Assembly: GCA_964511175.1 (NCBI GenBank) | Contig: CAZEEI010000005.1 | Span: forward strand, 3,416-67,415 | Source of the DNA: an uncultured Pseudomonadales bacterium | GTDB lineage: Bacteria; Patescibacteriota; Microgenomatia; UBA1400; UBA1396 | DNA: 64,000 nt | Direction of reading: 5' to 3' | Part shown: positions 5,406 to 51,060 of the stretch, piece by piece | How the letters are laid out: the number at the start of each line of letters is the position of its first letter | Position numbering within the stretch: position 1 is the first letter of the stretch | The notes under the pieces: generated by a model | Database searches by the model: none | Told to the model about the DNA's origin: nothing | What the model saw: only the letters and a program-made list of their open reading frames with translations | Program-made: the position numbers and the translations under genes

Positions 5406-6923
5406 CTACCTATTTGTCGCTGACTCAATTAACTGTTCCAGCAGGGTAATGGCCTCTTCAATATGTGTGGGCTCAGTGCGTGGATGCATTAATACGGCGC
5501 GGTAAGTCCATTGTTGTCTTTCAGCGGGTGACAAAGCATCAACTGACTCATCTACACTTAAGTTGGTGGCGGAAAAGAAATATCCCGACTGATCACGCAG
5601 TTGTTGTCTGGTTAACTCGATGATTGGCTCCAGTTGAGAATTATGGGTTATACCATGCCTGCGACAATACTCGGGTCGGATGGTGAAACAAACCACGTTG
5701 AGATGCGGCTTGTGCAGAGGCTGAAGTATCGGAGAGGCTAAGAGCCGTCGATAAAGGTACCCTGTATTATTCAGAGTGTGGTCTAAAAGTGCTTGCCACT
5801 CTTGTTTAGAAAAAGCATTGATGGCAGCCACGGTGGCTAAAACACAACCCGCCCCCGCCGATCCTTCAATTCTTTTCTGTCCAAGACTAACTTGTCCTGG
5901 CTTGAAAACATAAGCAGCATCATCCGAATCAAATTTTATTTTAGCGTGTTCATGAGGATCACGAAAAACGACTGCCCCAGCCTCATATGGCGTGTTTAAC
6001 GTTTTATGTGGATCCAGTGTAACCGAATTGGCTCTTTGAATACCCTTAAACAAATGTTTTTGGGTAGACATTAGATACGCAAATCCATAGGCGGCGTCTA
6101 CGTGGAGATAAATGTGATATTTCTTAGCGATATCCGCAATAGCATTAAGAGGGTCAACAATACCAGTTTCCGTTTCGCCAGCAATTGCGACAATTGCCAT
6201 AATTTTTTTGCCGCTGTCCGTAATTTCGCGGATCATCGCTTCTAGACCAGCCGGATCCATTTGGAGATTACGACTAGGAGCCTTAAGAACTGAGATTGAT
6301 CCATTGGGTCCGGCCAGAATGCGTACTGCTTTAGTGATGGAGTAATGGATAAACGGATTAGCAATAACGACGAACTCATTATTAGGACGTTCAGTGGTTG
6401 TTAGTCTTTCACGCTCAGCTTTTTCGGAGGCTAACTCACGGGCGACCCAAAGAGCGGTAAGGTTGGCCAGCGAGCCGCCGGAGGTAAAAGTCCCGCTGGC
6501 GCTCTTTTTGTCAAAACCAACTAACTCAGCCAACCAACCAATAGCCTCCGGTTCTAAGGCTGACTCTACTTCCGAAACTTCCCGGGCAACCGTATTAGAT
6601 CCAGACCGAATAGCCAGAATATATGCCAGCATCGCCGGAATTGAAGCCTCCGTCAACATATGACCAAGATAAAACTTATCAAAACGCTGCGCCTTTTTAA
6701 GGTGTTCAAAAATACGTTGAATAGCCTGCATCGCTTGGGGATTTTTTCTACTTACAAAACCCCGATCTCCATCCGCCATGTTTTGCAGAAGAATATAGAA
6801 TTGTTCGAGCTCGGCATCGTGATTTTCAGGGTCAAAAAAAGCAGCTCGCGCTGCCTCTAAATCAGATTGGTTAACCCTAAATTTAAACTCAGGATTTTGT
6901 TTTCGCGATCCTCGCTTATTCAT
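5406..6923 (-). CDS. pyridoxal-phosphate-dependent group II amino-acid decarboxylase (fold type I)
   Basis: HVDAAYGFAYL...SVTLDPHKTLNTPYEAGAVVFRD carries the S-x-HK PLP-lysine motif of GAD/TyrDC/MfnA-type decarboxylases. The supplied ORF starts at TTG 6983; ATG at 6923 (MNKRGSRKQ..., GGTGA upstream) is preferred. Confidence 0.8.
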   Translation of the reverse strand: MNKRGSRKQNPEFKFRVNQSDLEAARAAFFDPENHDAELEQFYILLQNMADGDRGFVSRKNPQAMQAIQRIFEHLKKAQRFDKFYLGHMLTEASIPAMLAYILAIRSGSNTVAREVSEVESALEPEAIGWLAELVGFDKKSASGTFTSGGSLANLTALWVARELASEKAERERLTTTERPNNEFVVIANPFIHYSITKAVRILAGPNGSISVLKAPSRNLQMDPAGLEAMIREITDSGKKIMAIVAIAGETETGIVDPLNAIADIAKKYHIYLHVDAAYGFAYLMSTQKHLFKGIQRANSVTLDPHKTLNTPYEAGAVVFRDPHEHAKIKFDSDDAAYVFKPGQVSLGQKRIEGSAGAGCVLATVAAINAFSKQEWQALLDHTLNNTGYLYRRLLASPILQPLHKPHLNVVCFTIRPEYCRRHGITHNSQLEPIIELTRQQLRDQSGYFFSATNLSVDESVDALSPAERQQWTYRAVLMHPRTEPTHIEEAITLLEQLIESATNR

Positions 6924-6995
6924 TATCACCGCTCCGTCAGAATTACAATTATTGATATTAGCATAAAAGATATTAATCGACAATATCCAATCAAT

Positions 6996-8093
6996 CTATA
7001 TCAATAGATTCTGAATTAATTCTTCATTTACAGCAAAACCTAATCCCAATTGTCGAGATACTTTGACGGTACCATTCTTGGTCATGGTAATTTCCGGCAC
7101 AATAATATCTTCTGTAAAAATCTTAGCCGAAGGAAAAATATCTGCTGGCAAACTAAACTCCGATAGTGAGGCGGTAAAAATATTAAAGGCATTAGCTATA
7201 CCCGCTTCCAACATGCCACCACACCATAGAGGGATATTTTGTTCTTTGGCCAACTGGTTAATTTGTAAAACCTCGACCAGACTGCCAATTCTTCCCGGCT
7301 TCACGTTAATAATGCCGCATGCTTTTAATTCTATGGCTTTTTTAGCTTTGGAATAACTAACAATGCTCTCATCCAAGCAAATTGGTGTTTTGATCTCTTT
7401 TTGTAATAATGAATGGTGCCAAAGGTCATCAAACTCCAAAGGTTGTTCAATCATTAATAAGTTAAAGTTATCCAATTGCTTGAACGTATCTAAATCATCG
7501 AGGGTGTAAGCTGAGTTAGCATCAACCATCAATACTAAATCGGGAAAAGACTGGCGAATAATTTTTACCAACTCCACATCCCAACCCGGCTTAATTTTCA
7601 CCTTAATACGATGATATCCTTCCTCAACACGCTTGGTAATTAGTTGCAAGGTTTCGTCAACGGTGGGTAAAATACCTATACTTTCGCCTAAATTTATCTC
7701 TCGACGTGTTCCGCCCAGCAAATCTACAATTGGTTTGCCCGAAATTTGGGAAATGATCGACCATAATGCACATTCCACGCCAAATTTAGCGATCTTATTG
7801 CCGCGTAAATGTTGTGTCTCTTGGTAGAAATCACTAGGTGTTAAAGCCTTATTCAAAACAATTGGTTTTAAAACATTTTCTAATATCGCTATAACCGTAT
7901 CGGTTGATTCCTCCAGATAAACAGGCTCCGTCAAGGCAGCTGACTCGCCGTAGCCAACAACGCCATCATCTGTTGTTAATTTAATAACCACCGTTTCCCG
8001 AAATGGTATGTCACCAAAACTAGTCTTGAAGGTAAACTTCATTGGCAGTCTCAGGCGAAAAATATCAAATCGGGCAATCTGAACGGGTGTCAT
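6996..8093 (-). CDS. enolase-superfamily enzyme, MLE subgroup (N-succinylamino-acid racemase / o-succinylbenzoate synthase / dipeptide epimerase-like)
   Basis: KVKIKPG (KxK), metal ligands in MVDANSAY, MIEQP, CLDES, and catalytic Lys in VKPGRIG; 365 aa; SD GGAGG 9 nt upstream of ATG. Confidence 0.8.
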   Translation of the reverse strand: MTPVQIARFDIFRLRLPMKFTFKTSFGDIPFRETVVIKLTTDDGVVGYGESAALTEPVYLEESTDTVIAILENVLKPIVLNKALTPSDFYQETQHLRGNKIAKFGVECALWSIISQISGKPIVDLLGGTRREINLGESIGILPTVDETLQLITKRVEEGYHRIKVKIKPGWDVELVKIIRQSFPDLVLMVDANSAYTLDDLDTFKQLDNFNLLMIEQPLEFDDLWHHSLLQKEIKTPICLDESIVSYSKAKKAIELKACGIINVKPGRIGSLVEVLQINQLAKEQNIPLWCGGMLEAGIANAFNIFTASLSEFSLPADIFPSAKIFTEDIIVPEITMTKNGTVKVSRQLGLGFAVNEELIQNLLI

Positions 8094-8135
8094 AAAACTA
8101 ACCTCCGGAGGCTCAATTATCCATTTATCTAACCA

Positions 8136-9092
8136 TTAACGCAAGCTTGGAGAAGATTGAACAACGTAAAAACTTCTCTTTTTTGAACCATCCAAACCCG
8201 TAGCAAATCCTGTGATAAGTCCCCGGCGATTAATATAATCGCTAGCTGTTTCACTGGTCATTACCTGGCTACATACTTGACGAAGCTGCACTCGCCAGGC
8301 CGCACTGTCAGCCGCGGATAAAGAATCTACATCGTAAGGTATTTCGACTAAAAATTTGTTGGGTAGTGATTTTGAACCAACTTCAGCAATAATCGGCAAG
8401 TTTGCCACATCATTGAGTGTTAGTGGTTGATAACTACCTGTGTGAATACCATTAAGACGTTTTTTTGTTGCAGGTTCATTAAGATTCCAGCGCACAGTAA
8501 AGCGATCGGTTGGATTCTCGCCATAGAGTTCACTGGATACTCTGCCATATTTGTTTACTGTGTATTTGTAACCGACAGCCCCTAATTTTTCTAAGTTTAA
8601 CCTAGCATTACTGCCGCGAAGCGGATCGTAAGTCCAATCTATTTCCGCAATCCCTTTAGCTTTAGCCAGTGCAGCTTGAATAAGCGAAAGATTCCAGCCC
8701 AGATCCTTACGGTAGCGCAGTGAGGGGTTGACACCGATCATATGTAAAATAAGCTTGCCGTCGATTGTACCCATAGTGAACACAAATCCTTCAAGCTGAC
8801 CCGAATTGTTCCGCGCAACAACAACATCCCCACCGGTATCACCAGCTATTGCTAGTAAATTACTGGGAACTAAATCCCGCGCGCCCATACCCCAGACCTG
8901 ACCCTGCAAACTGGTCACTTCTTCCAGAGCGGGAATATTCTTCCAATCCACCACTGAAAAAATAGTGTCTTTTCCGGCAAGCTCTTTTTGCCAAGAACGC
9001 GGGTCGACCTGTTGAAAACCAAAATTCTCCGGCCGCAGATATCCAGCTTTGTCTATTTCTATTCCTGAGTGTTCTTTTTTTTGAAAAGGCAT
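8136..9092 (-). CDS. hypothetical protein (318 aa), possibly an acyl-CoA N-acyltransferase-fold protein
   Basis: ATG with GGAG SD; no firm motif. Its position between an NSAR-like enzyme and an aminotransferase suggests a pathway role. The fold assignment is inference only. Confidence 0.45.
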   Translation of the reverse strand: MPFQKKEHSGIEIDKAGYLRPENFGFQQVDPRSWQKELAGKDTIFSVVDWKNIPALEEVTSLQGQVWGMGARDLVPSNLLAIAGDTGGDVVVARNNSGQLEGFVFTMGTIDGKLILHMIGVNPSLRYRKDLGWNLSLIQAALAKAKGIAEIDWTYDPLRGSNARLNLEKLGAVGYKYTVNKYGRVSSELYGENPTDRFTVRWNLNEPATKKRLNGIHTGSYQPLTLNDVANLPIIAEVGSKSLPNKFLVEIPYDVDSLSAADSAAWRVQLRQVCSQVMTSETASDYINRRGLITGFATGLDGSKKRSFYVVQSSPSLR

Positions 9093-9100
9093 CTATACTC

Positions 9101-10276
9101 CTATCTTTGATCCATGATGATCTTTAGCCGCCGATCCAATTCGTGTATATTCGCCTCATTGCCAGGTATACGTAGCCTAACTATTGAATCATCCATTTTT
9201 GCGTGAGTAGGTTTGAATGTTCCACCATCCTCAGAGCTAACTCCATATTCTAAGAGTTTGCCATAAAATCCTTCTGGTCCTCTGGCCATTAAAATACTTA
9301 CGGAAGGATGGGTGGGAGCCACGGCAACATTATTCGCCTGTAGAACCTCCACCAATTTAGTCTTCAGACTAGCAGTCTTAGCTCTAATTCCTGGTAAGAA
9401 CTTGGCCAGTATTTGAGAGTTAAGAGCAACTTGACTAAGCAAGTGAGTGATAGCATCGACGGTAAAAACCAGTTCAAAATTGCGGTACACATCACCCAAA
9501 TCCTTGGACATAACCGCATAACCCAAACGCGGAGAAGCCAGGCCTATCCCTTTAGAGATAGATCGCAAAACAATGAGATTAGAAAATTGTTCTGTCAATG
9601 GAATAGCCGAGTTCTGGTCGTCTATCAAATCGGCATAGGCTTCGTCAATGATAACGAGGTCTCTATTTTGAGTAACTTGAAGCAATCTGGATAACATTTG
9701 TTGGGTAACAGCGTCACCGGTTGGGTTGTTGGGATTATCAACATAAATTACCGCTTCTTTACGACTTTTTCTGCGATTATCAATCAGGGCCTGAATACTA
9801 TCTACCATTGGTGAGCCTAATTCCAGCTGAATGGGAAAATAGGGGATAGCAGCCCGGTCAGCCAGTAAAGCAATGTTAGTGAACTGCGGACCATAACCAA
9901 TCACTTGAGCGCCACCACGCACGGCATCATGAGAAACAAAGTCTGATAATATTGCCGCTAACAGGCCATAGCTCCCTGCACCATTAAAGAAAATCGGAGA
10001 AATTGGATTGCCGTCTTTATCTCTGTGATCGGTAAGACCAAAACGTCTTCGCACACTCTCTTGCAACTTACGAGCGTAAGGATCCTCGGGATATTCATTG
10101 ATCAAGCGTGGCGTAATTTTGCGGAGAGCGGCATTAATTTCTCTAGGATATCCCAATGGTGAATGTCCTAAACCGCAATCAATTAGAGGAAAATTAGGGT
10201 TAGTTTTAGGCTTCTGAGAAACATAATCTTCACGCTCAATGGGCCTCTTTAACAATCTTGCTCTGACTTTATTCAT
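9101..10276 (-). CDS. class I/II pyridoxal-phosphate aminotransferase (HisC-like)
   Basis: LVIIDEAYADL...LIVLRSISKGIGLASPRLGYAV with the SxSK PLP lysine; 391 aa. Confidence 0.8.
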   Translation of the reverse strand: MNKVRARLLKRPIEREDYVSQKPKTNPNFPLIDCGLGHSPLGYPREINAALRKITPRLINEYPEDPYARKLQESVRRRFGLTDHRDKDGNPISPIFFNGAGSYGLLAAILSDFVSHDAVRGGAQVIGYGPQFTNIALLADRAAIPYFPIQLELGSPMVDSIQALIDNRRKSRKEAVIYVDNPNNPTGDAVTQQMLSRLLQVTQNRDLVIIDEAYADLIDDQNSAIPLTEQFSNLIVLRSISKGIGLASPRLGYAVMSKDLGDVYRNFELVFTVDAITHLLSQVALNSQILAKFLPGIRAKTASLKTKLVEVLQANNVAVAPTHPSVSILMARGPEGFYGKLLEYGVSSEDGGTFKPTHAKMDDSIVRLRIPGNEANIHELDRRLKIIMDQR

Positions 10277-10325
10277 ATTTTACAAGTATATGGGTTTTGC
10301 ATATTTTACAAGTATATGGGTTTTG
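10274..10325. repeat. perfect tandem direct repeat, 2 x 26 bp (CATATTTTACAAGTATATGGGTTTTG)
   Basis: Copies at 10274-10299 and 10300-10325 are identical. Copy 1 includes the aminotransferase start codon (CAT is the complement of ATG). Confidence 0.85.
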
Positions 10326-10363
10326 TTCGTGCTGTCAATAATTAGTCATGATAGAATTTAACC

Positions 10364-11440
10364 ATGACCAAAACTCGGGAAGATCTATTAAAAATAATTA
10401 AATCTTTAGTAAGCTACCAAACAACTAATGATAATTTCGCTGCCATTACGGAATGTTATAACTATGTTGATCGACAATTAGATTTTTTCCCATTCCATAA
10501 AAAAATTATCAACCACAACGGTGTCAAGTCGCGCCTTTGGACAACCACAAAAAATAAACATCACACCTATATTTTAAATGCCCACGTCGATGTTGTGCCG
10601 GGAAGTAATAAATTATTCGCTCTGCGGCGCAAAAACGATAAACTATTTGGCCGTGGTGTTTCCGATATGAAGTACGCCATAGCGGTTTACATCCAAACTT
10701 TGCGCACTTTATACGAAAAAACAAAACGGCTGCCATCTCTGGCCCTAATCCTGACCGCAGATGAAGAGCGGGGCGGCCTAAATGGGACGGGCTATCTGGT
10801 TAAAGATTTGGGTTATCGGGCTGACCTTGCTTTTGTGCCGGATGGAGCAGAAAACGATCGTATTGTTGAAGAAGCCAAAGGAGTACTACAACTTAAAATT
10901 ACAACGCGGGGTAGGAGTGCTCATGCCGCGCGATTGTGGGAGGGGATAAGTGCCATTGATAATTTATGTCAAGTAATTGATCAATTGCGCCAGAAATACC
11001 CTTTTCCATCCAAACCCGTCTGGAAGACAACTTTAAACTTAGGGCAAATTAGTGGCGGGCAACAAACTAACCAGGTGGCAGATGAGGCTTCTCTTCTAGT
11101 CGATATTCGTTATACACCCAATCAATCCACGGCAAATATCTTGGAAAACATACGTAAAATTTGCCCAGGTTGTTTGGTAGAAATAGTTGTTAAAGCCGAT
11201 GCTTTTCAGATCAATCGTCAAAATCCTTATATCCAGAAATGGAACCAGATTTTAACTAAAGGCGATAAAAATGCATTTATCCGTGAAGACGGGGCTTCGG
11301 ATGGCCGCTACTTTACCGCCCAAGGAATTCCAACCATTGTTAGTAAACCAGAAGGTGGCCTCATTCATACGGAAAAGGAGTGGACCAGCCTTAGTTCGAT
11401 TGAACATTTCAGCCAATGTTTACAGCAGTTTCTCTCATAG
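10364..11440 (+). CDS. M20 family metallo-hydrolase (ArgE/DapE/N-acyl-amino-acid deacylase-like)
   Basis: LNAHVDVVPG, GRGVSDMKYAIAVYI (DMK motif), ADEERGG; 358 aa. Confidence 0.8.
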   Translation: MTKTREDLLKIIKSLVSYQTTNDNFAAITECYNYVDRQLDFFPFHKKIINHNGVKSRLWTTTKNKHHTYILNAHVDVVPGSNKLFALRRKNDKLFGRGVSDMKYAIAVYIQTLRTLYEKTKRLPSLALILTADEERGGLNGTGYLVKDLGYRADLAFVPDGAENDRIVEEAKGVLQLKITTRGRSAHAARLWEGISAIDNLCQVIDQLRQKYPFPSKPVWKTTLNLGQISGGQQTNQVADEASLLVDIRYTPNQSTANILENIRKICPGCLVEIVVKADAFQINRQNPYIQKWNQILTKGDKNAFIREDGASDGRYFTAQGIPTIVSKPEGGLIHTEKEWTSLSSIEHFSQCLQQFLS

Positions 11441-45392: not shown

Positions 45393-46682
45393 GTGCTAGA
45401 CATCAATTTTATTCGAACAAAACCCGAAGAACTGCGCCAAGCGGCGCGGGATAAGCAGCTGGATCCCAGTGTCATTGACCGCGTCCTGGATTTGGACGGC
45501 CAGCGGCGGGAATTACTAAGCCAGGTGGAAGAACTACGCCATCGGGCAAATGACCTCCAAGACCAAATCAAAGGCCGCCAACCCAGCGAGGGTGAAATCG
45601 CCGCTGGCCGCCAACTAAAAGAACAACTGCGGGAAGTGGAACCGACACTACGTTTGGTTGAGGAAGAACTCGCTGCCGCCCTGTATGCCGTACCCAATCC
45701 GGCCAGCAGCGACACACCCGTGGGACCAAACGAAAGCGGCAATGTGGAAGTACGGCAAGTCGGCACCAAACCTGCCTTCGACTTTGCCCCCAAAACCCAT
45801 GACGAACTACTCACCGAACTAGGTTTATTGGACACCAAACGCGCCGTCAAAATCGCCGGCACCCGCTCGTATTTTCTGAAGGGAAAACTGCTTTTGCTGG
45901 AACAAGCCATTCTGCAGTACGCCCTGCACTTCATGGTCGAACAAGGCTTCACCCCGTTTGGCGTGCCAGTGATGGTTAAGCACGAAGCCTTCATGAACAC
46001 TGGCTATGGTCCGTGGGGAATGGACGATATTTTCAGCATCGGTAATCCGGAAAAAGAAGGCGACTGGCGCGGCCTAGTGGGCACCGCCGAAGTACCCCTT
46101 ACCGCTTATTACCAAGGTGAAGTCCTGCGCGAAGCCGATCTGCCCATGCGGATGGTAGGCATTAGTCCCTGTTTCCGCAAAGAGGTGGGCTCTTACGGCA
46201 AAGACACTAAGGGTATGTTCCGCGTCCACACCTTCACTAAGGTCGAACAAGTGGTTTATACCATCGCTGATGAAGAGGTAACGCGAGCTTGGCACGACAA
46301 GATGCTAGGCTACGCCGAACAGCTCCTCCAAAATCTCGGTTTGGCTTACCACGTTTTGCTCATGTGCACTGGCGACATGGGGGCCGGCCAACGACGCAAG
46401 TACGACATCGAAACTTGGTTCCCGGGACAAAACGCCTACCGCGAAACCCATTCGGACAGTTACTTTAACGATTTTCAGGCGCGGCGGCTGAATATCCGTT
46501 ACCAAGCGCAGGACGGCAGTCTCAAATACGTCTATACCATTAACAATACGGTTGCGGCCACGCCGCGCCTGCTGGCCGCGGTGGTAGAAAACTACCAACA
46601 AGCGGATGGTTCGATTGTGGTACCGGCAGTACTGCGCCCACTGACTGGCTTCGATCGGATTGAGGCGAAAAACCTGATGTAG
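45393..46682 (+). CDS. serS: serine--tRNA ligase
   Basis: N-terminal coiled-coil arm plus class II core; GTG start with an AAGGAG SD. Confidence 0.9.
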   Translation: MLDINFIRTKPEELRQAARDKQLDPSVIDRVLDLDGQRRELLSQVEELRHRANDLQDQIKGRQPSEGEIAAGRQLKEQLREVEPTLRLVEEELAAALYAVPNPASSDTPVGPNESGNVEVRQVGTKPAFDFAPKTHDELLTELGLLDTKRAVKIAGTRSYFLKGKLLLLEQAILQYALHFMVEQGFTPFGVPVMVKHEAFMNTGYGPWGMDDIFSIGNPEKEGDWRGLVGTAEVPLTAYYQGEVLREADLPMRMVGISPCFRKEVGSYGKDTKGMFRVHTFTKVEQVVYTIADEEVTRAWHDKMLGYAEQLLQNLGLAYHVLLMCTGDMGAGQRRKYDIETWFPGQNAYRETHSDSYFNDFQARRLNIRYQAQDGSLKYVYTINNTVAATPRLLAAVVENYQQADGSIVVPAVLRPLTGFDRIEAKNLM

Positions 46683-46726
46683 TTGATGTCTTATGATATA
46701 CTTTGGCAAGCAAAAGATAAGTGGTT

Positions 46727-47125
46727 ATGCCAAAACATCGTCATGTTTCGATTGAACCAGAAACCCTACGGGCTACTGTTGTTGATTTTTCTCTCCCACC
46801 TGACTCACAATGTGGTTTAAGTTTCAGAAATTGGTTATTGGGATTTGCTCAAGAACATGGATTACCGATAGCTCTATATCCAAATGACGTTGCAGTACAA
46901 CCGGTTCTGGATTGGATAAGACAGAATCATCCAGATGAGTCCAACTTTCTCGTTTGGATCGATAGTTTAAGGATATTTGTCCAACACGACCGAGAGTTGA
47001 TTAACCAGTGTTTAACTAGGGGGTGGCCGAATAGGAATTATTCTACTATAACTAACCAGCGCAATTATATTGCGTGGGTTAATTTACAACTAGAAGTTAT
47101 TGACAATTACAACGCTATACCGTAA
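46727..47125 (+). CDS. hypothetical protein
   Basis: ATG 46727 (supplied GTG 46721); no motif. Confidence 0.45.
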   Translation: MPKHRHVSIEPETLRATVVDFSLPPDSQCGLSFRNWLLGFAQEHGLPIALYPNDVAVQPVLDWIRQNHPDESNFLVWIDSLRIFVQHDRELINQCLTRGWPNRNYSTITNQRNYIAWVNLQLEVIDNYNAIP

Positions 47126-47151
47126 CTTTACCGAAAAGCAGAAAGGCACCC

Positions 47152-47544
47152 ATGGCGTCACCAGATCGATTAGGTTTATCACCAGATTCGCTGGATATTC
47201 TCCCTAATCTGCAGCGTAATCTAGGCAAAGCCATTCGGCTTTATGTTGAACGAATTGCCCAGGAAAACCAGTGTCTGGTAGGCAAAGACGAAATAGATGG
47301 CAGTTTAAATATCAAATCAATTGTGCGTTTTCTGCGACTGCTTAACTATCATGGCTACTATACCCGTTTCGTCGATTCAAAAGTGCTAATGGGGACTACG
47401 GTTGAGGCCCACTTTATTATTGAAGACCGCAATGGTTCAGCGGCAATTAGTACTGAAGTGACATTTATTTCCGAAGATTTAAATGACTATGTCGTTTATG
47501 GCCTTGGCAAAATACCTGATAAAAAACCTAAAAAACGGCGCTGA
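47152..47544 (+). CDS. hypothetical protein with Lys-rich C-terminus
   Basis: ATG ORF, 130 aa. Confidence 0.45.
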   Translation: MASPDRLGLSPDSLDILPNLQRNLGKAIRLYVERIAQENQCLVGKDEIDGSLNIKSIVRFLRLLNYHGYYTRFVDSKVLMGTTVEAHFIIEDRNGSAAISTEVTFISEDLNDYVVYGLGKIPDKKPKKRR

Positions 47545-47618
47545 AATCATTAAATATCCAAACCAGATAGGGAAATGCCCCTATCCGGGCGGTTCGCCGA
47601 GGGTTATAATCAACTTCC

Positions 47619-49310
47619 ATGAGCCTTCATGGGATATCCCAAGCGATTTTGCCGAAACGTGAGTTCCTACCGAATTATATTTTTGTGTCGGGTGGAGTGC
47701 TGTCATCACTGGGTAAAGGCACTACCACCGCCTCCATTGCCTTACTGCTGAAGTCGCGCGGCTACCAAGTCACGATCGTTAAGTGCGAAAATTACCTCAA
47801 TATTGATGCTGGTTTAATTAATCCGATCGAACACGGCGATGCTTTTCTCTGCGAAGATGGTACCGAAGCCGACATGGACTTGGGTACCTACGAACGCTTC
47901 ATCAACCAAGACTTAGGACGGCATAATTTTGTCACGATGGGCCAAATCTACCAGACGGTAATCGAACGCGAACGGGCTTTTGGTTATAAGGGCGAAGACG
48001 TAGAGGCCGTGCCACACGTTACTGACGAAATCATTGACCGTATTAACGAAGCCGCACGACGCGATAAAGCCGAAGTGGTAATTGTGGAGCTTGGCGGCAC
48101 GGCCGGCGAGTACCAAAACGCTCTTTACTACGAAGCCTCCCGCATCTTGGATTACCAGCATGGTAACCGGGTGGTCCACGTGCACGTCAGCTACTTACCT
48201 ACACCAGCGCATATCGGTGAACCCAAGACCAAACCCACCCAGCTGTCGGTACGCAACCTCAATAGTATGGGCGTCCAACCAGATTTCATTGTTACCCGCG
48301 CCACGCGTCCCATCGACGAGCGCCGACGGGAAAGATTGGGCTTGTTTTGTCACGTTCCCTGCGAAAACGTAATTGACAGTCCGGATGTCAGCAACATTTA
48401 TGAAATTCCTCTAATCTTAGCCCAGCAGGAGTTTGATATAAAACTACTGCACCAGTTACACCTGCCAACGCGCCGCCTTAACTTGCGCCGGTGGCAAAAA
48501 TACGTTACCCAAGCTAAAGCACCCAAAACTCAAACGGCAACGATTGGCATTATTGGCAAGTACTTTGCCACCGGCGATTACGAGCTACGTGATTCCTATG
48601 CTGCTTTGTTGGAGGCTATTAATCACGCTGCGGTAGCCGCCAACGCCCAAACTAAAGTAGTTTGGGTTAACGCCGAAGAATTAGCCAAAGTGGAAAAGGC
48701 CGAAACTTTGTTGGGCCAATTGGACGGCATTATTGTGCCGATCGGCTGGGGCGAACGCGGGGTGGAGGGTAAAATCCGTGGTATCGCTTACGCCCGGGAA
48801 AACAAGATCCCATATTTAGGTCTTTGCTACGGCATGCAACTGGCAGTGGTAGAGTACGCCCGCCACGTGTTGGGTTGGCCGGACGCCCACACCACGGAGG
48901 TTAACCCTGATACTACTCATCCGGTTATTCACATCATTCCTGAGCAAAAACGGGTTCTGGAAAACCGCGCCTACGGTGGCACCATGCGGCTGGGACGATG
49001 GGATTGTCACCTAACCAAAAATACTGAGGTACAGCGCATCTACCAAAAAGACTTAATTGCGGAGCGCCACCGCCACCGCTATGAGTTCAATGACCAATTT
49101 GCTAAACAACTAACTAAGGGTGGTTTAGTGATTGCCGGCCGTTCGGTGCAGGAAAATTTGGTGGAGTTTATTGAATTGCCCAGGAGCGTCCACCCGTTTT
49201 TTGTGGGGACGCAGGGACACCCGGAATATAAGTCCAGACCGCTACAACCGCACCCGTTGTTTGTGGCGTTTGTGCAGGCGGCACTGCAACAGAGTATTGC
49301 TAAGTTATAG
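47619..49310 (+). CDS. pyrG: CTP synthase
   Basis: YIFVSGGVLSSLGKG, glutamine amidotransferase LGLCYGMQ. A perfect TATAAT at 47605-47610 lies only 8 nt before ATG 47619, which suggests a leaderless or very short-leader mRNA. Confidence 0.9.
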   Translation: MSLHGISQAILPKREFLPNYIFVSGGVLSSLGKGTTTASIALLLKSRGYQVTIVKCENYLNIDAGLINPIEHGDAFLCEDGTEADMDLGTYERFINQDLGRHNFVTMGQIYQTVIERERAFGYKGEDVEAVPHVTDEIIDRINEAARRDKAEVVIVELGGTAGEYQNALYYEASRILDYQHGNRVVHVHVSYLPTPAHIGEPKTKPTQLSVRNLNSMGVQPDFIVTRATRPIDERRRERLGLFCHVPCENVIDSPDVSNIYEIPLILAQQEFDIKLLHQLHLPTRRLNLRRWQKYVTQAKAPKTQTATIGIIGKYFATGDYELRDSYAALLEAINHAAVAANAQTKVVWVNAEELAKVEKAETLLGQLDGIIVPIGWGERGVEGKIRGIAYARENKIPYLGLCYGMQLAVVEYARHVLGWPDAHTTEVNPDTTHPVIHIIPEQKRVLENRAYGGTMRLGRWDCHLTKNTEVQRIYQKDLIAERHRHRYEFNDQFAKQLTKGGLVIAGRSVQENLVEFIELPRSVHPFFVGTQGHPEYKSRPLQPHPLFVAFVQAALQQSIAKL

Positions 49311-49510
49311 CGGTAATTTTTTTAACCCTATTGGATGACTGAACGGGTTCGCAGATGAATTGAGGGTGTTTTGAGTCAAGATTCAAGACACTAGATAAAA
49401 CAATAGTGTTTGGGTATAATTCGTATCTAGCAAACTGTCGAGGAATGTTATATAAAATTATCTAATCTCGTAACACTTTCGTAATATTCTCGTAGTAAAG
49501 TAAGAAGAGT

Positions 49511-49675
49511 ATGAAAAAAAATAAATCCAAAACCACTATCCGAGATATTGAAAGAGAATACAAAATAGACTTTGGGGTCAGTGGTGATATGAATCTAAGT
49601 ACTTACCTAAAAAATCAAGGTCTTTTATCCCTCAGTCGTTTCCTTAAAAAAATAGAGTCTAGACCTAGTATTTAA
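49511..49675 (+). CDS. small hypothetical protein (54 aa) in AT-rich island
   Basis: ATG ORF MKKNKSKTTIRDIEREYKIDFGVSG..., 4 nt upstream of the next ORF; region GC is about 30%. Confidence 0.3.
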   Translation: MKKNKSKTTIRDIEREYKIDFGVSGDMNLSTYLKNQGLLSLSRFLKKIESRPSI

Positions 49676-49679
49676 TTAA

Positions 49680-50210
49680 ATGCCTGATTCTCTTGTTCTT
49701 TGGCATAACATTAAGACCACATTTAGTGATGTTGCTGTTCAATACAAACACGCTCAATCCGTGGGTACTAGAGCTAGAACAGGTTATTATCGAGCTGCTT
49801 TTATACTTCTAGCTTCTATCGTAGAGGCTATGTTATATCGCCTAATAGAAAAAGCTATTGATCAAGATGAATCTGTTGTCCAAAGACAACAATTTGAAAG
49901 AATAAAAAAGATTCAAAAAGTTAATAGTTCCCATATTGGAACAAATAAAACCATTTATATTTGCGAAATATATAAAGAAAATTTTATTTTAACTCCAGAA
50001 AAATCCAAGTTTAGTGGTATGAATACTTTCTGTCTAACATCTGGATTAATTGACTTACAGCTATATAAAAAGATTGATAAAGTAGTAAAAAAGAGGAAAG
50101 AAATACACCTTCAAGGTCTTGTTACAAAAAGAAGACAATACAATGAATTAACTTTAGATATGGCAGGAGAATTAATGGATGAAATTTTGGCAAAGATAGA
50201 TTCTATTTAA
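49680..50210 (+). CDS. hypothetical protein (176 aa) in AT-rich island
   Basis: ATG ORF with AT-rich codon usage unlike its neighbours; no recognised domain. Confidence 0.5.
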   Translation: MPDSLVLWHNIKTTFSDVAVQYKHAQSVGTRARTGYYRAAFILLASIVEAMLYRLIEKAIDQDESVVQRQQFERIKKIQKVNSSHIGTNKTIYICEIYKENFILTPEKSKFSGMNTFCLTSGLIDLQLYKKIDKVVKKRKEIHLQGLVTKRRQYNELTLDMAGELMDEILAKIDSI

Positions 50211-50315
50211 TTTTCATTCATTCATTTACTTGTTTATATTAAGGAGGTGCCCCCAAAGCCTCTCGACTATCAGCTAATTCCTGCTATAATAGACCCCTCA
50301 AGCAAAGGCTGATCT

Positions 50316-50657
50316 ATGGCAAATAACTTAACTTTTAACGAGCAACGCTTCAACGTGGGTGACACCGTGCGTGTCCACCAGCGGATTACCGAAGCCGGCA
50401 AGTCGCGTATCCAGATTTTGGAAGGCGTTATCATTGCCATCAATAATCGGGAAAGCGGCAAATCCTTTATTGTGCGCAAAATCGGCGCCAACGGCATCGG
50501 GGTCGAGCGTATTTTTCCCCTCAATTCACCAGCAATCGTTAAATTGGAAATGAAACAGGCCGGCCGGGTTCACCGCGCCAAGTTATTCTACCTGCGTAAC
50601 CGGATTGGTAAGGCGGCTTCAGCCATTAAAAAGCGCCTCATTACTACCGAAGCGTAA
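50316..50657 (+). CDS. rplS: 50S ribosomal protein L19
   Basis: [12 protein letters not shown]...[15 protein letters not shown]...FIVRKI typical L19. Promoter-like TCGACT-N16-TATAAT upstream. Confidence 0.9.
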
Positions 50658-50691
50658 CCTTTTTGACACTATTGTCTGGCATGTTAAATAC

Positions 50692-51060
50692 ATGCCAATT
50701 TCACTTCCCTCCACTCGTACCCGCGGCCAAATTGCCGAAGATTTAGTGGCGACGTATTTGCAACGCACTGGCCACATTATTCTCCAGCGCAACCTCTATA
50801 CCCGTTTTGGCGAAATTGATATTTTAGCCCGCAAGGGTGATGAATTTATTGCGGTCGAGGTCCGCTCCCGCACCCGCCAAACCAATATTCCGCCGGAACT
50901 TTCGGTCAGCCGGAACAAGTACCGCCATTTAGTAAAAACTTTACTCAGTTTGTCTTTTTTGCAAAATAAACCTACCCGAATCGACCTAGTTACCGTGGAG
51001 GCTGGCCGTATTCGGCATCATTTCCGGGCGATCAATCCGCTACAGGGAAGTTACTGGTGA
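50692..51060 (+). CDS. yraN: YraN family (UPF0102) endonuclease
   Basis: GEDLVATYLQRTGHIILQRN...GEIDILARKGDEFIAVEVRSR. The supplied longer ORF overlaps rplS. Confidence 0.75.
   Translation: MPISLPSTRTRGQIAEDLVATYLQRTGHIILQRNLYTRFGEIDILARKGDEFIAVEVRSRTRQTNIPPELSVSRNKYRHLVKTLLSLSFLQNKPTRIDLVTVEAGRIRHHFRAINPLQGSYW

What the first reader, a model, noticed from the sequence alone, without database searches (positions are those of the whole stretch)
49320..50230. Roughly 30% GC two-gene island between pyrG and rplS
About 900 bp are strikingly AT-rich relative to the flanks. They encode a 54-aa and a 176-aa protein with no recognisable domains. Each has its own TATAAT-like promoter, and a ribosomal-protein gene follows immediately. 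The composition and the small two-gene layout are typical of horizontally acquired defence, abortive-infection or toxin-antitoxin cargo.
Basis: seen in the sequence. Interest (0 to 1): 0.6.

Follow-up and report, generated by a model that had tools for sequence, protein, structure and literature searches.

The report
Mobile HEPN-RNase two-gene cassette insertion
The AT-rich stretch is a horizontally acquired two-gene cassette, absent from 80 related genomes, that pairs a predicted RNA-cutting toxin of the HEPN fold with a new small basic partner protein; it is probably a toxin-antitoxin or abortive-infection type module of an undescribed family.

Summary
Window 49320-50230 has 30.8% GC against a window mean of 48.5%, the lowest 900-bp value in the window. 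It carries a 54-aa and a 176-aa ORF only 4 nt apart, with GC3 of 0.25 and 0.19 against 0.475 for other genes.

It is an insertion. The host is a Patescibacteria (Microgenomates-type) genome. In 51 of 61 relatives pyrG and rplS lie 17-152 bp apart, and none of 80 relatives carries either gene.

The 176-aa protein belongs to an unannotated family of about 240 sequence clusters. A confident model (pLDDT 95.5) has the canonical HEPN topology, and the closest solved folds are HepT toxins. The family conserves E49, R139-N140 and H143 at the HEPN active-site positions, but with Rx3H rather than Rx4-6H spacing.

A homologous basic protein of about 54-85 aa lies directly upstream in 22 of 22 loci and matches no known family. 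The cassette turns up between unrelated housekeeping genes and beside restriction-modification, AIPR and Cas12a genes.

Best reading: a mobile HEPN RNase toxin with a small cognate partner. Function is inferred, not shown. The window copy carries two unusual substitutions (N140K, R136V).

The parts
47619..49310 (+). pyrG (CTP synthase). Left flank and host gene, not part of the cassette.
   Evidence: Pfam CTP_synth_N E=1.3e-95 and GATase. GC 0.512.
49311..49510 (+). Left junction and leader of the cassette. It contains the only promoter-like site upstream of the small ORF (TAGATA-17-TATAAT at 49392-49420).
   Evidence: GC 0.34. Not alignable to the pyrG-rplS spacers of relatives. Not unusually structured (z = -0.16). 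No Rfam match.
49511..49675 (+). Small partner gene: 54 aa, pI about 10, of a new family. Candidate antitoxin or nucleic-acid-binding partner.
   Evidence: A homolog lies directly upstream of the HEPN gene in 22/22 non-redundant loci (HMM E from 1e-34 to 2e-5; alignment A5). Substitutions are biased to codon position 3 (870/655/1900). No Pfam, NCBIfam, PHROG or PDB-sequence match.
49680..50210 (+). HEPN-fold protein of 176 aa, a predicted metal-independent RNase (toxin/effector). Active-site candidates are E49, R139 and H143.
   Evidence: AF2 model with pLDDT 95.5. Foldseek top hits are HepT toxins with probability up to 0.99. Pfam HEPN-clan hits in 10 of 116 family members. Conservation table.
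50211..50262 (+). Right junction, AT-rich and then GC-rich. No terminator-like site was detected.
50263..50315 (+). Native rplS promoter and leader (TCGACT-16-TG-TATAAT, then CTGATCTATGGCA). Host sequence that marks the right limit of the insert.
   Evidence: The leader motif is shared with relatives L005, L006 and L012.
50316..50657 (+). rplS (ribosomal protein L19). Right flank and host gene.
   Evidence: Pfam Ribosomal_L19 E=1.7e-34.

Best explanation
The island is a horizontally acquired, self-contained two-gene operon inserted into the normally very short pyrG-rplS spacer of a Patescibacteria (Microgenomates-type) chromosome.

The downstream gene encodes a single-domain HEPN protein. By analogy with characterised HEPN enzymes, it would act as a metal-independent endoribonuclease. 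H143 and R139 (end of helix 3 and the following loop) together with E49 (helix 2) would form the active site, probably completed across a homodimer.

The upstream gene encodes a strictly co-inherited, translationally coupled small basic protein. It most likely binds the RNase and holds it inactive, as an antitoxin-like partner, until a trigger such as phage infection, stress or loss of the cassette releases it. RNA cleavage would then arrest growth.

Shown here: the insertion, the cassette architecture and its conservation, the HEPN fold, and the conserved residues. Inferred: RNase activity, toxicity, neutralisation by the small protein, and any anti-phage or addiction role.
For: Insertion: 0 of 80 relatives have either gene. 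pyrG-rplS gaps are 17-152 bp in 51 of 61 relatives, against 1005 bp here. GC is 0.31 against 0.485, and GC3 is 0.19/0.25 against 0.475. The sequence is identical in an independent assembly.

Family: 241 cluster representatives at E<=1e-3, nearly all 170-190 aa.

HEPN fold: the deep-alignment model has pLDDT 95.5 and pTM 0.87, with H1 4-26, H2 30-62, an insert at 64-120, H3 126-140 and H4 156-175. This matches the published HEPN definition: insert between helices 2 and 3, motif at the end of helix 3, acidic residue in helix 2 (PMC3710099). Foldseek top hits are HepT/SO_3166 toxins (probability 0.97-0.99), followed by other HEPN proteins. Seven members hit Pfam HEPN_RiboL-PSP (best E=1.7e-6), two hit DUF4145 and one hits HepT-like. 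There are weak PADLOC hits to Csx1/Csm6-HEPN and HEPN_IX.

Active-site conservation: E49 115/116, R139 115/116, N140 112/116, H143 115/116.

Partner: present upstream on the same strand, with gaps of about 0-25 nt, in 22/22 loci. Both genes are under protein-level constraint.

TA-like behaviour: the cassette is scattered between unrelated genes (uvrA|uvrB, a pilus cluster, dinB|dsbA, near polA, rpsP/rnc). It also sits beside an EcoRI-type methylase, inside a Mod/SDH-protease/ResIII cluster, next to AIPR, next to Cas12a-Cas1-Cas2, and near IS1595 transposases and MazEF. In 2 of 22 loci the large gene is split by a frameshift while the small gene stays intact. Module GC is below flank GC in 22/22 loci. 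Most copies have their own -10 box.
Against: No activity data exist.

The invariant R-H spacing is 3 residues, not the canonical 4-6. The alternative Rx6H arginine (R136, present in 101/116 members) is Val in the window copy. The near-invariant Asn after the Arg is Lys in the window copy. This particular copy may therefore be attenuated or inactive.

The small partner is strongly basic (mean pI 10.25), whereas classic type II antitoxins are usually acidic, and it matches no antitoxin family.

No conserved palindromic operator was found upstream.

Foldseek E-values are weak (0.03-0.3), and the profile finds no HEPN chain in PDB by sequence.

There is no match to any PADLOC defence-system model above noise. 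The family is absent from the phage, plasmid and IMG/VR collections searched.
Confidence: 0.6

Rival explanations
1. This is a two-component effector rather than a toxin-antitoxin pair. The small basic protein would be a nucleic-acid-binding or targeting subunit, or a transcription regulator, that works with the HEPN RNase instead of neutralising it. It might, for example, recruit the RNase to RNA or to ribosomes during phage infection.
For: The partner has pI of about 10, a Lys/Arg-rich N-terminal tail and no antitoxin-family match. It has a weak, non-significant resemblance to the rRNA-contacting N-terminus of archaeal eL21 (E=0.28). No operator-like palindrome was found. Several copies sit in defence contexts: AIPR, restriction-modification genes and Cas12a.
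Against: The gene order (small gene first, tight coupling) is the classic antitoxin-toxin arrangement described in PMC3710099. Where the cassette decays, the large gene breaks and the small one stays intact (2 loci). The eL21 similarity is not significant.
Confidence: 0.2
2. The window copy is an inactive or decaying remnant. It would be a horizontally acquired cassette whose RNase has lost activity (N140K, R136V) and which now has no function in this genome.
For: N140 is Asn in 112/116 members and Lys in only 2. Position 136 is Arg in 101/116 members, and Val occurs only in the window copy. In the KEN domain, the polar residue after the Arg contributes to catalysis (PMC3710099). Frameshifted copies exist elsewhere (L095, L098).
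Against: Both ORFs are intact and full length. E49, R139 and H143 are retained. Position 136 is also non-Arg in several of the closest relatives, which otherwise look intact (alignment A3). The extreme GC difference suggests recent arrival, leaving little time for decay.
Confidence: 0.12
3. The HEPN domain is non-catalytic and has a host function, acting as an RNA-binding or regulatory protein (as MtlR does) that the cell uses for RNA or ribosome metabolism. The position next to rplS would then be meaningful.
For: Some HEPN domains are non-catalytic binders (PMC3710099). Several copies lie near translation genes: rplS, rpsP, rplJ-rplL, rpsT and infB.
Against: The catalytic-type residues are almost invariant across the family. 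The distribution is patchy, mostly singleton clusters, and the cassette is absent from 80 relatives. Its locations are unrelated to each other. Translation genes make up a large share of these small genomes, so proximity to them is expected by chance.
Confidence: 0.06
4. The island is an assembly or binning artefact, with foreign low-GC DNA wrongly joined into this contig.
For: The compositional break is very sharp.
Against: An independent Logan assembly of SRR8925769 (L004) is identical over window 46616-50408 and crosses both junctions. Homologous cassettes are similarly embedded between housekeeping genes on contigs of up to 206 kb.
Confidence: 0.02

Closest known systems
HepT-MntA (HEPN-MNT, type VII toxin-antitoxin; PDB 7bxo, 6m6w, 5yep)
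   Same: It is the best structural match to the model (Foldseek probability 0.97-0.99). It is a single-domain HEPN toxin encoded downstream of its partner in a two-gene operon, with the catalytic R...H at the end of helix 3.
   Different: Its partner is a nucleotidyltransferase of about 100-140 aa that AMPylates a Tyr in the RX4HXY motif. Here the partner is an unrelated basic protein of about 54-85 aa. The motif here is R-N-x-I-H-L-Q (Rx3H, with no Tyr two residues after the His). A roughly 55-residue insert containing a beta-hairpin sits between helices 2 and 3.
Pfam HEPN_RiboL-PSP (PF18735), distantly related to AbiD/AbiF (Abi_2) abortive-infection proteins
   Same: It is the most frequent sequence-profile hit for the family (7 of 116 members, best E=1.7e-6). 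Members are stand-alone HEPN proteins with a conserved motif. The family is described as distantly related to AbiF and AbiD (PMC3710099).
   Different: The window protein and 109 of 116 members do not hit the model. Neither the fusion to endoRNase L-PSP nor the operon with ParB that characterise that family was seen.
RnlA-RnlB / LsoA-LsoB (HEPN toxin with a small protein antitoxin, anti-phage)
   Same: A HEPN RNase is held in check by a small dedicated protein, and the module functions in TA and anti-phage roles (PMC8266594 abstract).
   Different: From general knowledge, not tested here: RnlA is a larger multi-domain protein and its antitoxin gene lies downstream. There is no sequence similarity to either component.
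DUF4145 HEPN domains in restriction-modification contexts, and Csx1/Csm6 HEPN
   Same: There are weak profile hits: DUF4145 in 2 members, and PADLOC Csx1/Csm6 E=0.004-0.007. Some cassette copies lie inside or beside restriction-modification and CRISPR-Cas loci. Csx1 also carries beta-hairpin elaborations (PMC3710099).
   Different: There is no fusion to REase, helicase or CARF domains. The cassette occurs equally often away from any defence gene.

Membership tests
HEPN superfamily | Four-helix core made of two alpha-hairpins | tested here: met
HEPN superfamily | [quoted passage not shown] | tested here: met
   Residues 64-120 (a beta-hairpin at 71-81/92-101 plus a helix at 111-120) lie exactly between H2 and H3. 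Definition from PMC3710099.
HEPN superfamily | [quoted passage not shown] | tested here: inconclusive
   The position is right: R139-N140 end H3 and H143 begins the loop, and R and H are each conserved in 115/116 members. The invariant spacing, however, is Rx3H. An Rx6H reading using R136 holds in 101/116 members but not in the window copy, which has V136.
HEPN superfamily | Polar residue (N, D or H) immediately after the conserved Arg | tested here: inconclusive
   It is Asn in 112/116 family members, so the feature is met for the family. The window copy has Lys140.
HEPN superfamily | Conserved acidic residue in helix 2 | tested here: met
   E49 is conserved in 115/116 members and lies within H2 (30-62).
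HEPN superfamily | Metal-independent endoRNase activity | not testable with these tools
   This needs biochemistry.
Pfam HEPN_RiboL-PSP (PF18735) | Significant match of this protein to the family model | tested here: not met
   The window protein has no hit even at E<=1. Only 7 of 116 relatives hit at E<=0.01. It is related at clan level and is not a member.
HEPN-MNT (HepT-MntA) toxin-antitoxin | Adjacent minimal nucleotidyltransferase partner | tested here: not met
   The upstream partner is a protein of about 54-85 aa with no NTase or any other Pfam or NCBIfam match.
HEPN-MNT (HepT-MntA) toxin-antitoxin | RX4HXY motif with the AMPylated Tyr | tested here: not met
   The motif here is R-[NK]-x-I-H-L-Q. 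Position H+2 is Gln in 72/116 members, and Tyr is not among the five commonest residues there.
Type II toxin-antitoxin module (generic) | Two small adjacent co-oriented genes, with the partner upstream and tightly coupled | tested here: met
   The gap is 4 nt in the window and about 0-25 nt elsewhere. The partner is present in 22/22 loci.
Type II toxin-antitoxin module (generic) | Patchy, mobile distribution independent of the neighbouring genes | tested here: met
   It is absent in 80 relatives. The flanks are unrelated in each locus. Clusters are mostly singletons.
Type II toxin-antitoxin module (generic) | Antitoxin with a recognisable DNA-binding fold, and a palindromic operator in the promoter | tested here: not met
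   There is no RHH, HTH, AbrB or Phd match. Only chance-level inverted repeats of 6-7 nt lie upstream, and they are not conserved.
Type II toxin-antitoxin module (generic) | Toxicity of the large protein and its neutralisation by the small one | not testable with these tools
   This needs expression assays.
Known anti-phage defence systems (PADLOC v2) | Match to a system-specific model | tested here: not met
   Only noise-level hits were found (best E=0.00038 in 1 of 116 members; Csx1/Csm6 E=0.004 in 2 members).

The most novel reading that the evidence does not exclude
The cassette defines a new, Patescibacteria-associated HEPN system. A non-canonical Rx3H ribonuclease would work with a previously unseen small basic nucleic-acid-binding protein that is not a conventional acidic, DNA-binding antitoxin. 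The partner might, for example, tether the RNase to rRNA, tRNA or invader RNA, or neutralise it by a new mechanism. This would give ultra-small, defence-poor CPR bacteria a compact immunity or addiction module of about 700 bp.
Probability: 0.2. Interest if true: 0.65.

Novelty: new variant of a known kind. Interest (0 to 1): 0.45.

Why it matters
HEPN RNases are among the most widely reused effectors of bacterial conflict systems: TA modules, Abi systems, Cas13 and Csm6. This family has no Pfam, NCBIfam, PHROG or PADLOC model. It departs from the canonical motif spacing, and it always travels with a partner protein that has no known relatives.

So far it has been seen only in metagenomes, including two Patescibacteria lineages (Microgenomates-type and Saccharibacteria). 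Those organisms have tiny genomes and few recognised defence systems. If the pair is an active toxin/partner module, three things follow:
- It adds a compact new module to the TA and defence repertoire.
- It provides a marker of recent horizontal transfer in CPR genomes.
- It offers a minimal HEPN enzyme of 176 aa with an altered active-site geometry for structural study.

If it is only another HEPN toxin-antitoxin pair, it is a routine addition to a large known class.

Tried and rejected
1. Direct domain scans of both window proteins (Pfam, NCBIfam, PHROGs, PADLOC) gave nothing significant. The only hint was a weak Csx1/Csm6-HEPN hit.
2. The word-indexed homolog search found only 2 relatives of the large protein and none of the small one. 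With the family profile it still returned only 11. The exhaustive HMMER search was needed to reveal the family.
3. A profile search of PDB sequences found no HEPN chain for either protein.
5. Phage or plasmid origin was tested and not supported. There were no relatives in IMG/VR, INPHARED phages or PLSDB plasmids by tblastn.
6. Transposon or integrase signatures were tested. The island has no flanking direct or inverted repeats, there is no tRNA nearby, and the window holds no transposase. IS1595 transposases lie upstream in 2 of 22 loci, but no inverted repeats bracket transposase plus cassette. This remains a lead only.
7. A hidden RNA element or type III-style RNA antitoxin was rejected. 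There is no Rfam match, the leader is not structured, and the small ORF evolves as a protein.
8. An apparent natural fusion of the two proteins (P0121) was rejected as evidence. Under the standard code the reading frame contains two in-frame TAG stops, so the 'fusion' depends on a TAG=Gln gene call on a 1.3-kb contig.
9. The idea that the pyrG-rplS junction is a dedicated defence hotspot was rejected. Other insertions there in relatives are a phosphoribosyltransferase-like gene or purB/purA/guaB-like genes, identified by reading the translations only.
10. No autoregulatory operator was found.
11. An assembly chimera was rejected.

Full report
**1. The observation**

Window 49320-50230 is 30.8% GC. 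The window mean is 48.5% (SD 4.0% for 900-bp windows), and no other 900-bp window is as low.

Two ORFs lie on the + strand: 54 aa at 49511-49675 and 176 aa at 49680-50210, separated by 4 nt. Their GC3 values are 0.25 and 0.19. The 58 window ORFs of at least 100 aa average 0.475 +/- 0.079, and the 176-aa gene is the most extreme of them.

The flanks are pyrG (CTP_synth_N, E=1.3e-95) and rplS (Ribosomal_L19, E=1.7e-34), followed by a UPF0102/YraN gene.

An independent Logan assembly (L004) is identical to window 46616-50408, so both junctions are real.

One promoter-like site (49392-49420) precedes the small ORF. The other (50263-50290) is the rplS promoter, whose leader is shared with relatives. 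No site lies between the ORFs, and the number of sites found equals the shuffle expectation.

**2. It is an insertion**

pyrG-anchored loci from 80 species representatives identify the host as a Patescibacteria of the Microgenomates/Woesebacteria type. The best pyrG identity is 81%.

rplS lies downstream on the same strand in 61 of them. In 51 of those the gap is only 17-152 bp, whereas the window gap is 1005 bp. Neither island gene is detectable in any of the 80 loci, by tblastn or by family HMMs.

The few other insertions at this junction look, from their translations, like housekeeping genes: a phosphoribosyltransferase-like gene and purB/purA/guaB-like genes. These were read by eye and not scanned against Pfam.

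No repeats, tRNA or transposase mark the island.

**3. The 176-aa protein**

Direct scans find nothing significant, and the word-indexed search finds only two relatives. An exhaustive HMMER profile search finds 241 cluster representatives at E<=1e-3 (104 at E<=1e-10). Nearly all are stand-alone proteins of 170-190 aa. The 30 I looked up are from metagenomes, are mostly singleton clusters, and are at best named 'hypothetical protein'. One is from a Candidatus Saccharibacteria MAG.

Across 116 full-length members, four positions are nearly invariant: E49, R139, N140 and H143.

Scanning every member against Pfam gives hits only to HEPN-clan families above noise: HEPN_RiboL-PSP in 7 members (best E=1.7e-6), DUF4145 in 2 and HepT-like in 1.

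The deep alignment yields an AlphaFold2 model with pLDDT 95.5 and pTM 0.87. A 3-sequence alignment had given pLDDT 73 with the same topology. The model has these elements:
- helix 1 at 4-26
- helix 2 at 30-62, containing E49
- an insert at 64-120, with a beta-hairpin and a short helix
- helix 3 at 126-140, ending in R139-N140, with H143 at the start of the next loop
- helix 4 at 156-175

This is the arrangement given for HEPN domains by Anantharaman et al. [quoted passage not shown]

Foldseek against the PDB puts HepT toxins of the MntA-HepT and SO_3165-SO_3166 systems first (probability 0.97-0.99, E 0.03-0.15, target TM 0.5-0.6). Other HEPN proteins follow: 1wwp, 1ylm, 1jog, 7ae8, 4nqf and a Csm6.

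I conclude with about 0.9 confidence that this is a HEPN-superfamily domain of a family not covered by current models.

Two caveats apply. The invariant Arg-His spacing is 3, not 4-6. The window copy has Lys instead of the near-invariant Asn140, and Val at position 136, where 101/116 members have Arg. Position 136 is also non-Arg in several of the closest relatives.

**4. The partner**

A basic protein of about 54-85 aa (called gene lengths) is encoded immediately upstream on the same strand. The family core is `IEKKY.VDF.VR.DMKLGTYLK.KGLPSLSKAL.KV`, and mean pI is 10.25 over 16 copies.

It is present in all 22 non-redundant loci that include upstream sequence, with gaps of about 0-25 nt. Substitutions concentrate at third codon positions in both genes, so both are translated and constrained.

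The partner matches nothing in Pfam, NCBIfam, PHROGs or PDB sequences. The best hit is a non-significant similarity to the N-terminus of archaeal eL21.

An apparent fusion protein (P0121) turned out to depend on reading two TAG codons as Gln, and is not counted.

**5. Where the cassette lives**

Module GC is below flank GC in 22/22 loci (median -0.065). The window and L086 are the extremes at -0.184.

| Locus | Neighbourhood |
|---|---|
| L002 | rpsP-side genes and an rnc-like gene fragment |
| L088 | NrdD-like gene (by eye) / radical-SAM activase and an HtrA-type protease |
| L098 | infB and an M23 peptidase |
| L103 | inside a type IV pilus cluster |
| L104 | between uvrA and uvrB |
| L105 | near polA |
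| L106 | between dinB and dsbA |
| L100 | rplJ-rplL, plus an IS1595 transposase |
| L101 | IS1595 transposase, with MazEF nearby |
| L094 | EcoRI-type methylase and a Bro-N protein |
| L096 | inside a Mod / ClpP-like SDH protease / ResIII cluster |
| L091 | next to an AIPR abortive-infection gene |
| L085 | near a rolling-circle Rep |
| L107 | directly upstream of Cas12a-Cas1-Cas2 in a Saccharibacteria contig |

In two loci (L095, L098) the large gene is split into two frames while the small one is intact.

Most copies carry their own TATAAT-type -10 box, but no conserved operator is apparent.

No relatives were found in IMG/VR, INPHARED phages or PLSDB plasmids. No PADLOC system model matches.

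**6. Mechanism**

The best-supported reading (confidence 0.6) is a mobile toxin-partner operon. A HEPN endoribonuclease, with H143 as general base, R139 and E49 assisting, and probably acting as a dimer, would be kept inactive by its co-translated small partner. It would be released on infection, stress or loss of the cassette.

The architecture, the fold, the conserved residues and the mobility are shown. The RNase activity, the toxicity and the neutralisation are inferred from established knowledge of HEPN families (PMC3710099).

The main rival (0.2) is that the basic partner is a nucleic-acid-binding adaptor or regulator rather than an antitoxin. Lesser rivals:
- This particular copy is inactive (0.12).
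- The HEPN domain is a non-catalytic host factor (0.06).
- The island is an assembly artefact (0.02, effectively excluded).

**7. Comparison and novelty**

It works like HEPN toxin systems: HepT-MntA, RnlA-RnlB, and AbiD/AbiF-type Abi proteins. It is not a member of HEPN-MNT, because it has no nucleotidyltransferase partner and no RX4HXY tyrosine. It is not a member of PF18735, because the window protein does not match that model.

It is best described as a new variant of a known kind: an unmodelled HEPN family with Rx3H spacing, a beta-hairpin insert and a novel small basic partner. So far it has been seen only in metagenomic, Patescibacteria-type contexts.

Literature searches found no description of this pairing.

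Interest is moderate at 0.45. HEPN TA and Abi modules are common, but the partner, the motif variant and the CPR setting are new and easy to test.

Noticed in passing
window 46721-47544: Two hypothetical genes (134 aa and 130 aa) lie between serS and pyrG. They have no domain hits and low GC3 (0.33 and 0.35). In relatives L005 and L006 serS and pyrG are only about 150-210 bp apart, and only L011 has a 42%-identical homolog of the 130-aa protein. This is probably a second, older insertion beside pyrG.
   Followed up: partly
window about 6500-11440: This is the second lowest-GC block in the window (about 0.37-0.40). It holds four consecutive ORFs with GC3 of 0.37-0.38 (6996-8093, 8136-9092, 9101-10276, 10364-11440). 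It may be another acquired gene cluster.
   Followed up: no
L107 4775-11524: In a Candidatus Saccharibacteria contig the cassette sits about 460 bp upstream of a Cas12a (REC1/RuvC/NUC)-Cas1-Cas2 locus.
   Followed up: partly
L096 3087-8774: The cassette is embedded between an N6/N4 DNA methylase and a ClpP-like SDH-type serine protease plus a ResIII helicase. This looks like a composite restriction or defence island.
   Followed up: partly
L100 6007-6858; L101 5148-6035: Homologous IS1595-family transposases (37% identity) lie 0.2-1 kb upstream of the cassette in two unrelated loci. No inverted repeats bracket transposase plus cassette. This is a possible but unproven vehicle for its mobility.
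   Followed up: partly
L108 381-1139: The source called a 252-aa 'fusion' of partner and HEPN domain, which requires reading two in-frame TAG codons as Gln. The terminal stop is TGA. The contig is either TAG-recoded or the gene was miscalled, and at 1.3 kb it is too short to decide.
   Followed up: partly
L095 4992-5565; L098 4490-5012: In these two loci the HEPN gene is split across two reading frames while the small partner gene is intact. These are either pseudogenised toxin genes or sequencing errors.
   Followed up: partly
L010, L015, L017, L021 (gap after pyrG); L018, L034, L054, L077: In some Microgenomates relatives the pyrG-rplS junction holds a 197-199-aa phosphoribosyltransferase-like gene or a 3-4 kb purB/purA/guaB-like block, identified from the translations only. 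The junction is therefore a recurrent site of gene-order change, not only of foreign insertions.
   Followed up: partly
window 50605-51060: The longest ORF for the UPF0102/YraN-like gene starts at a TTG that overlaps the end of rplS by 53 nt. The real start is probably further downstream.
   Followed up: no
alignment A5 (small partner), profile positions 31-59: There is a weak, non-significant similarity (E=0.28) to the N-terminal segment of archaeal ribosomal protein eL21 (KLSKHPRRRGLPPLTRFL). It is noted only as a lead for a possible RNA-binding role.
   Followed up: no
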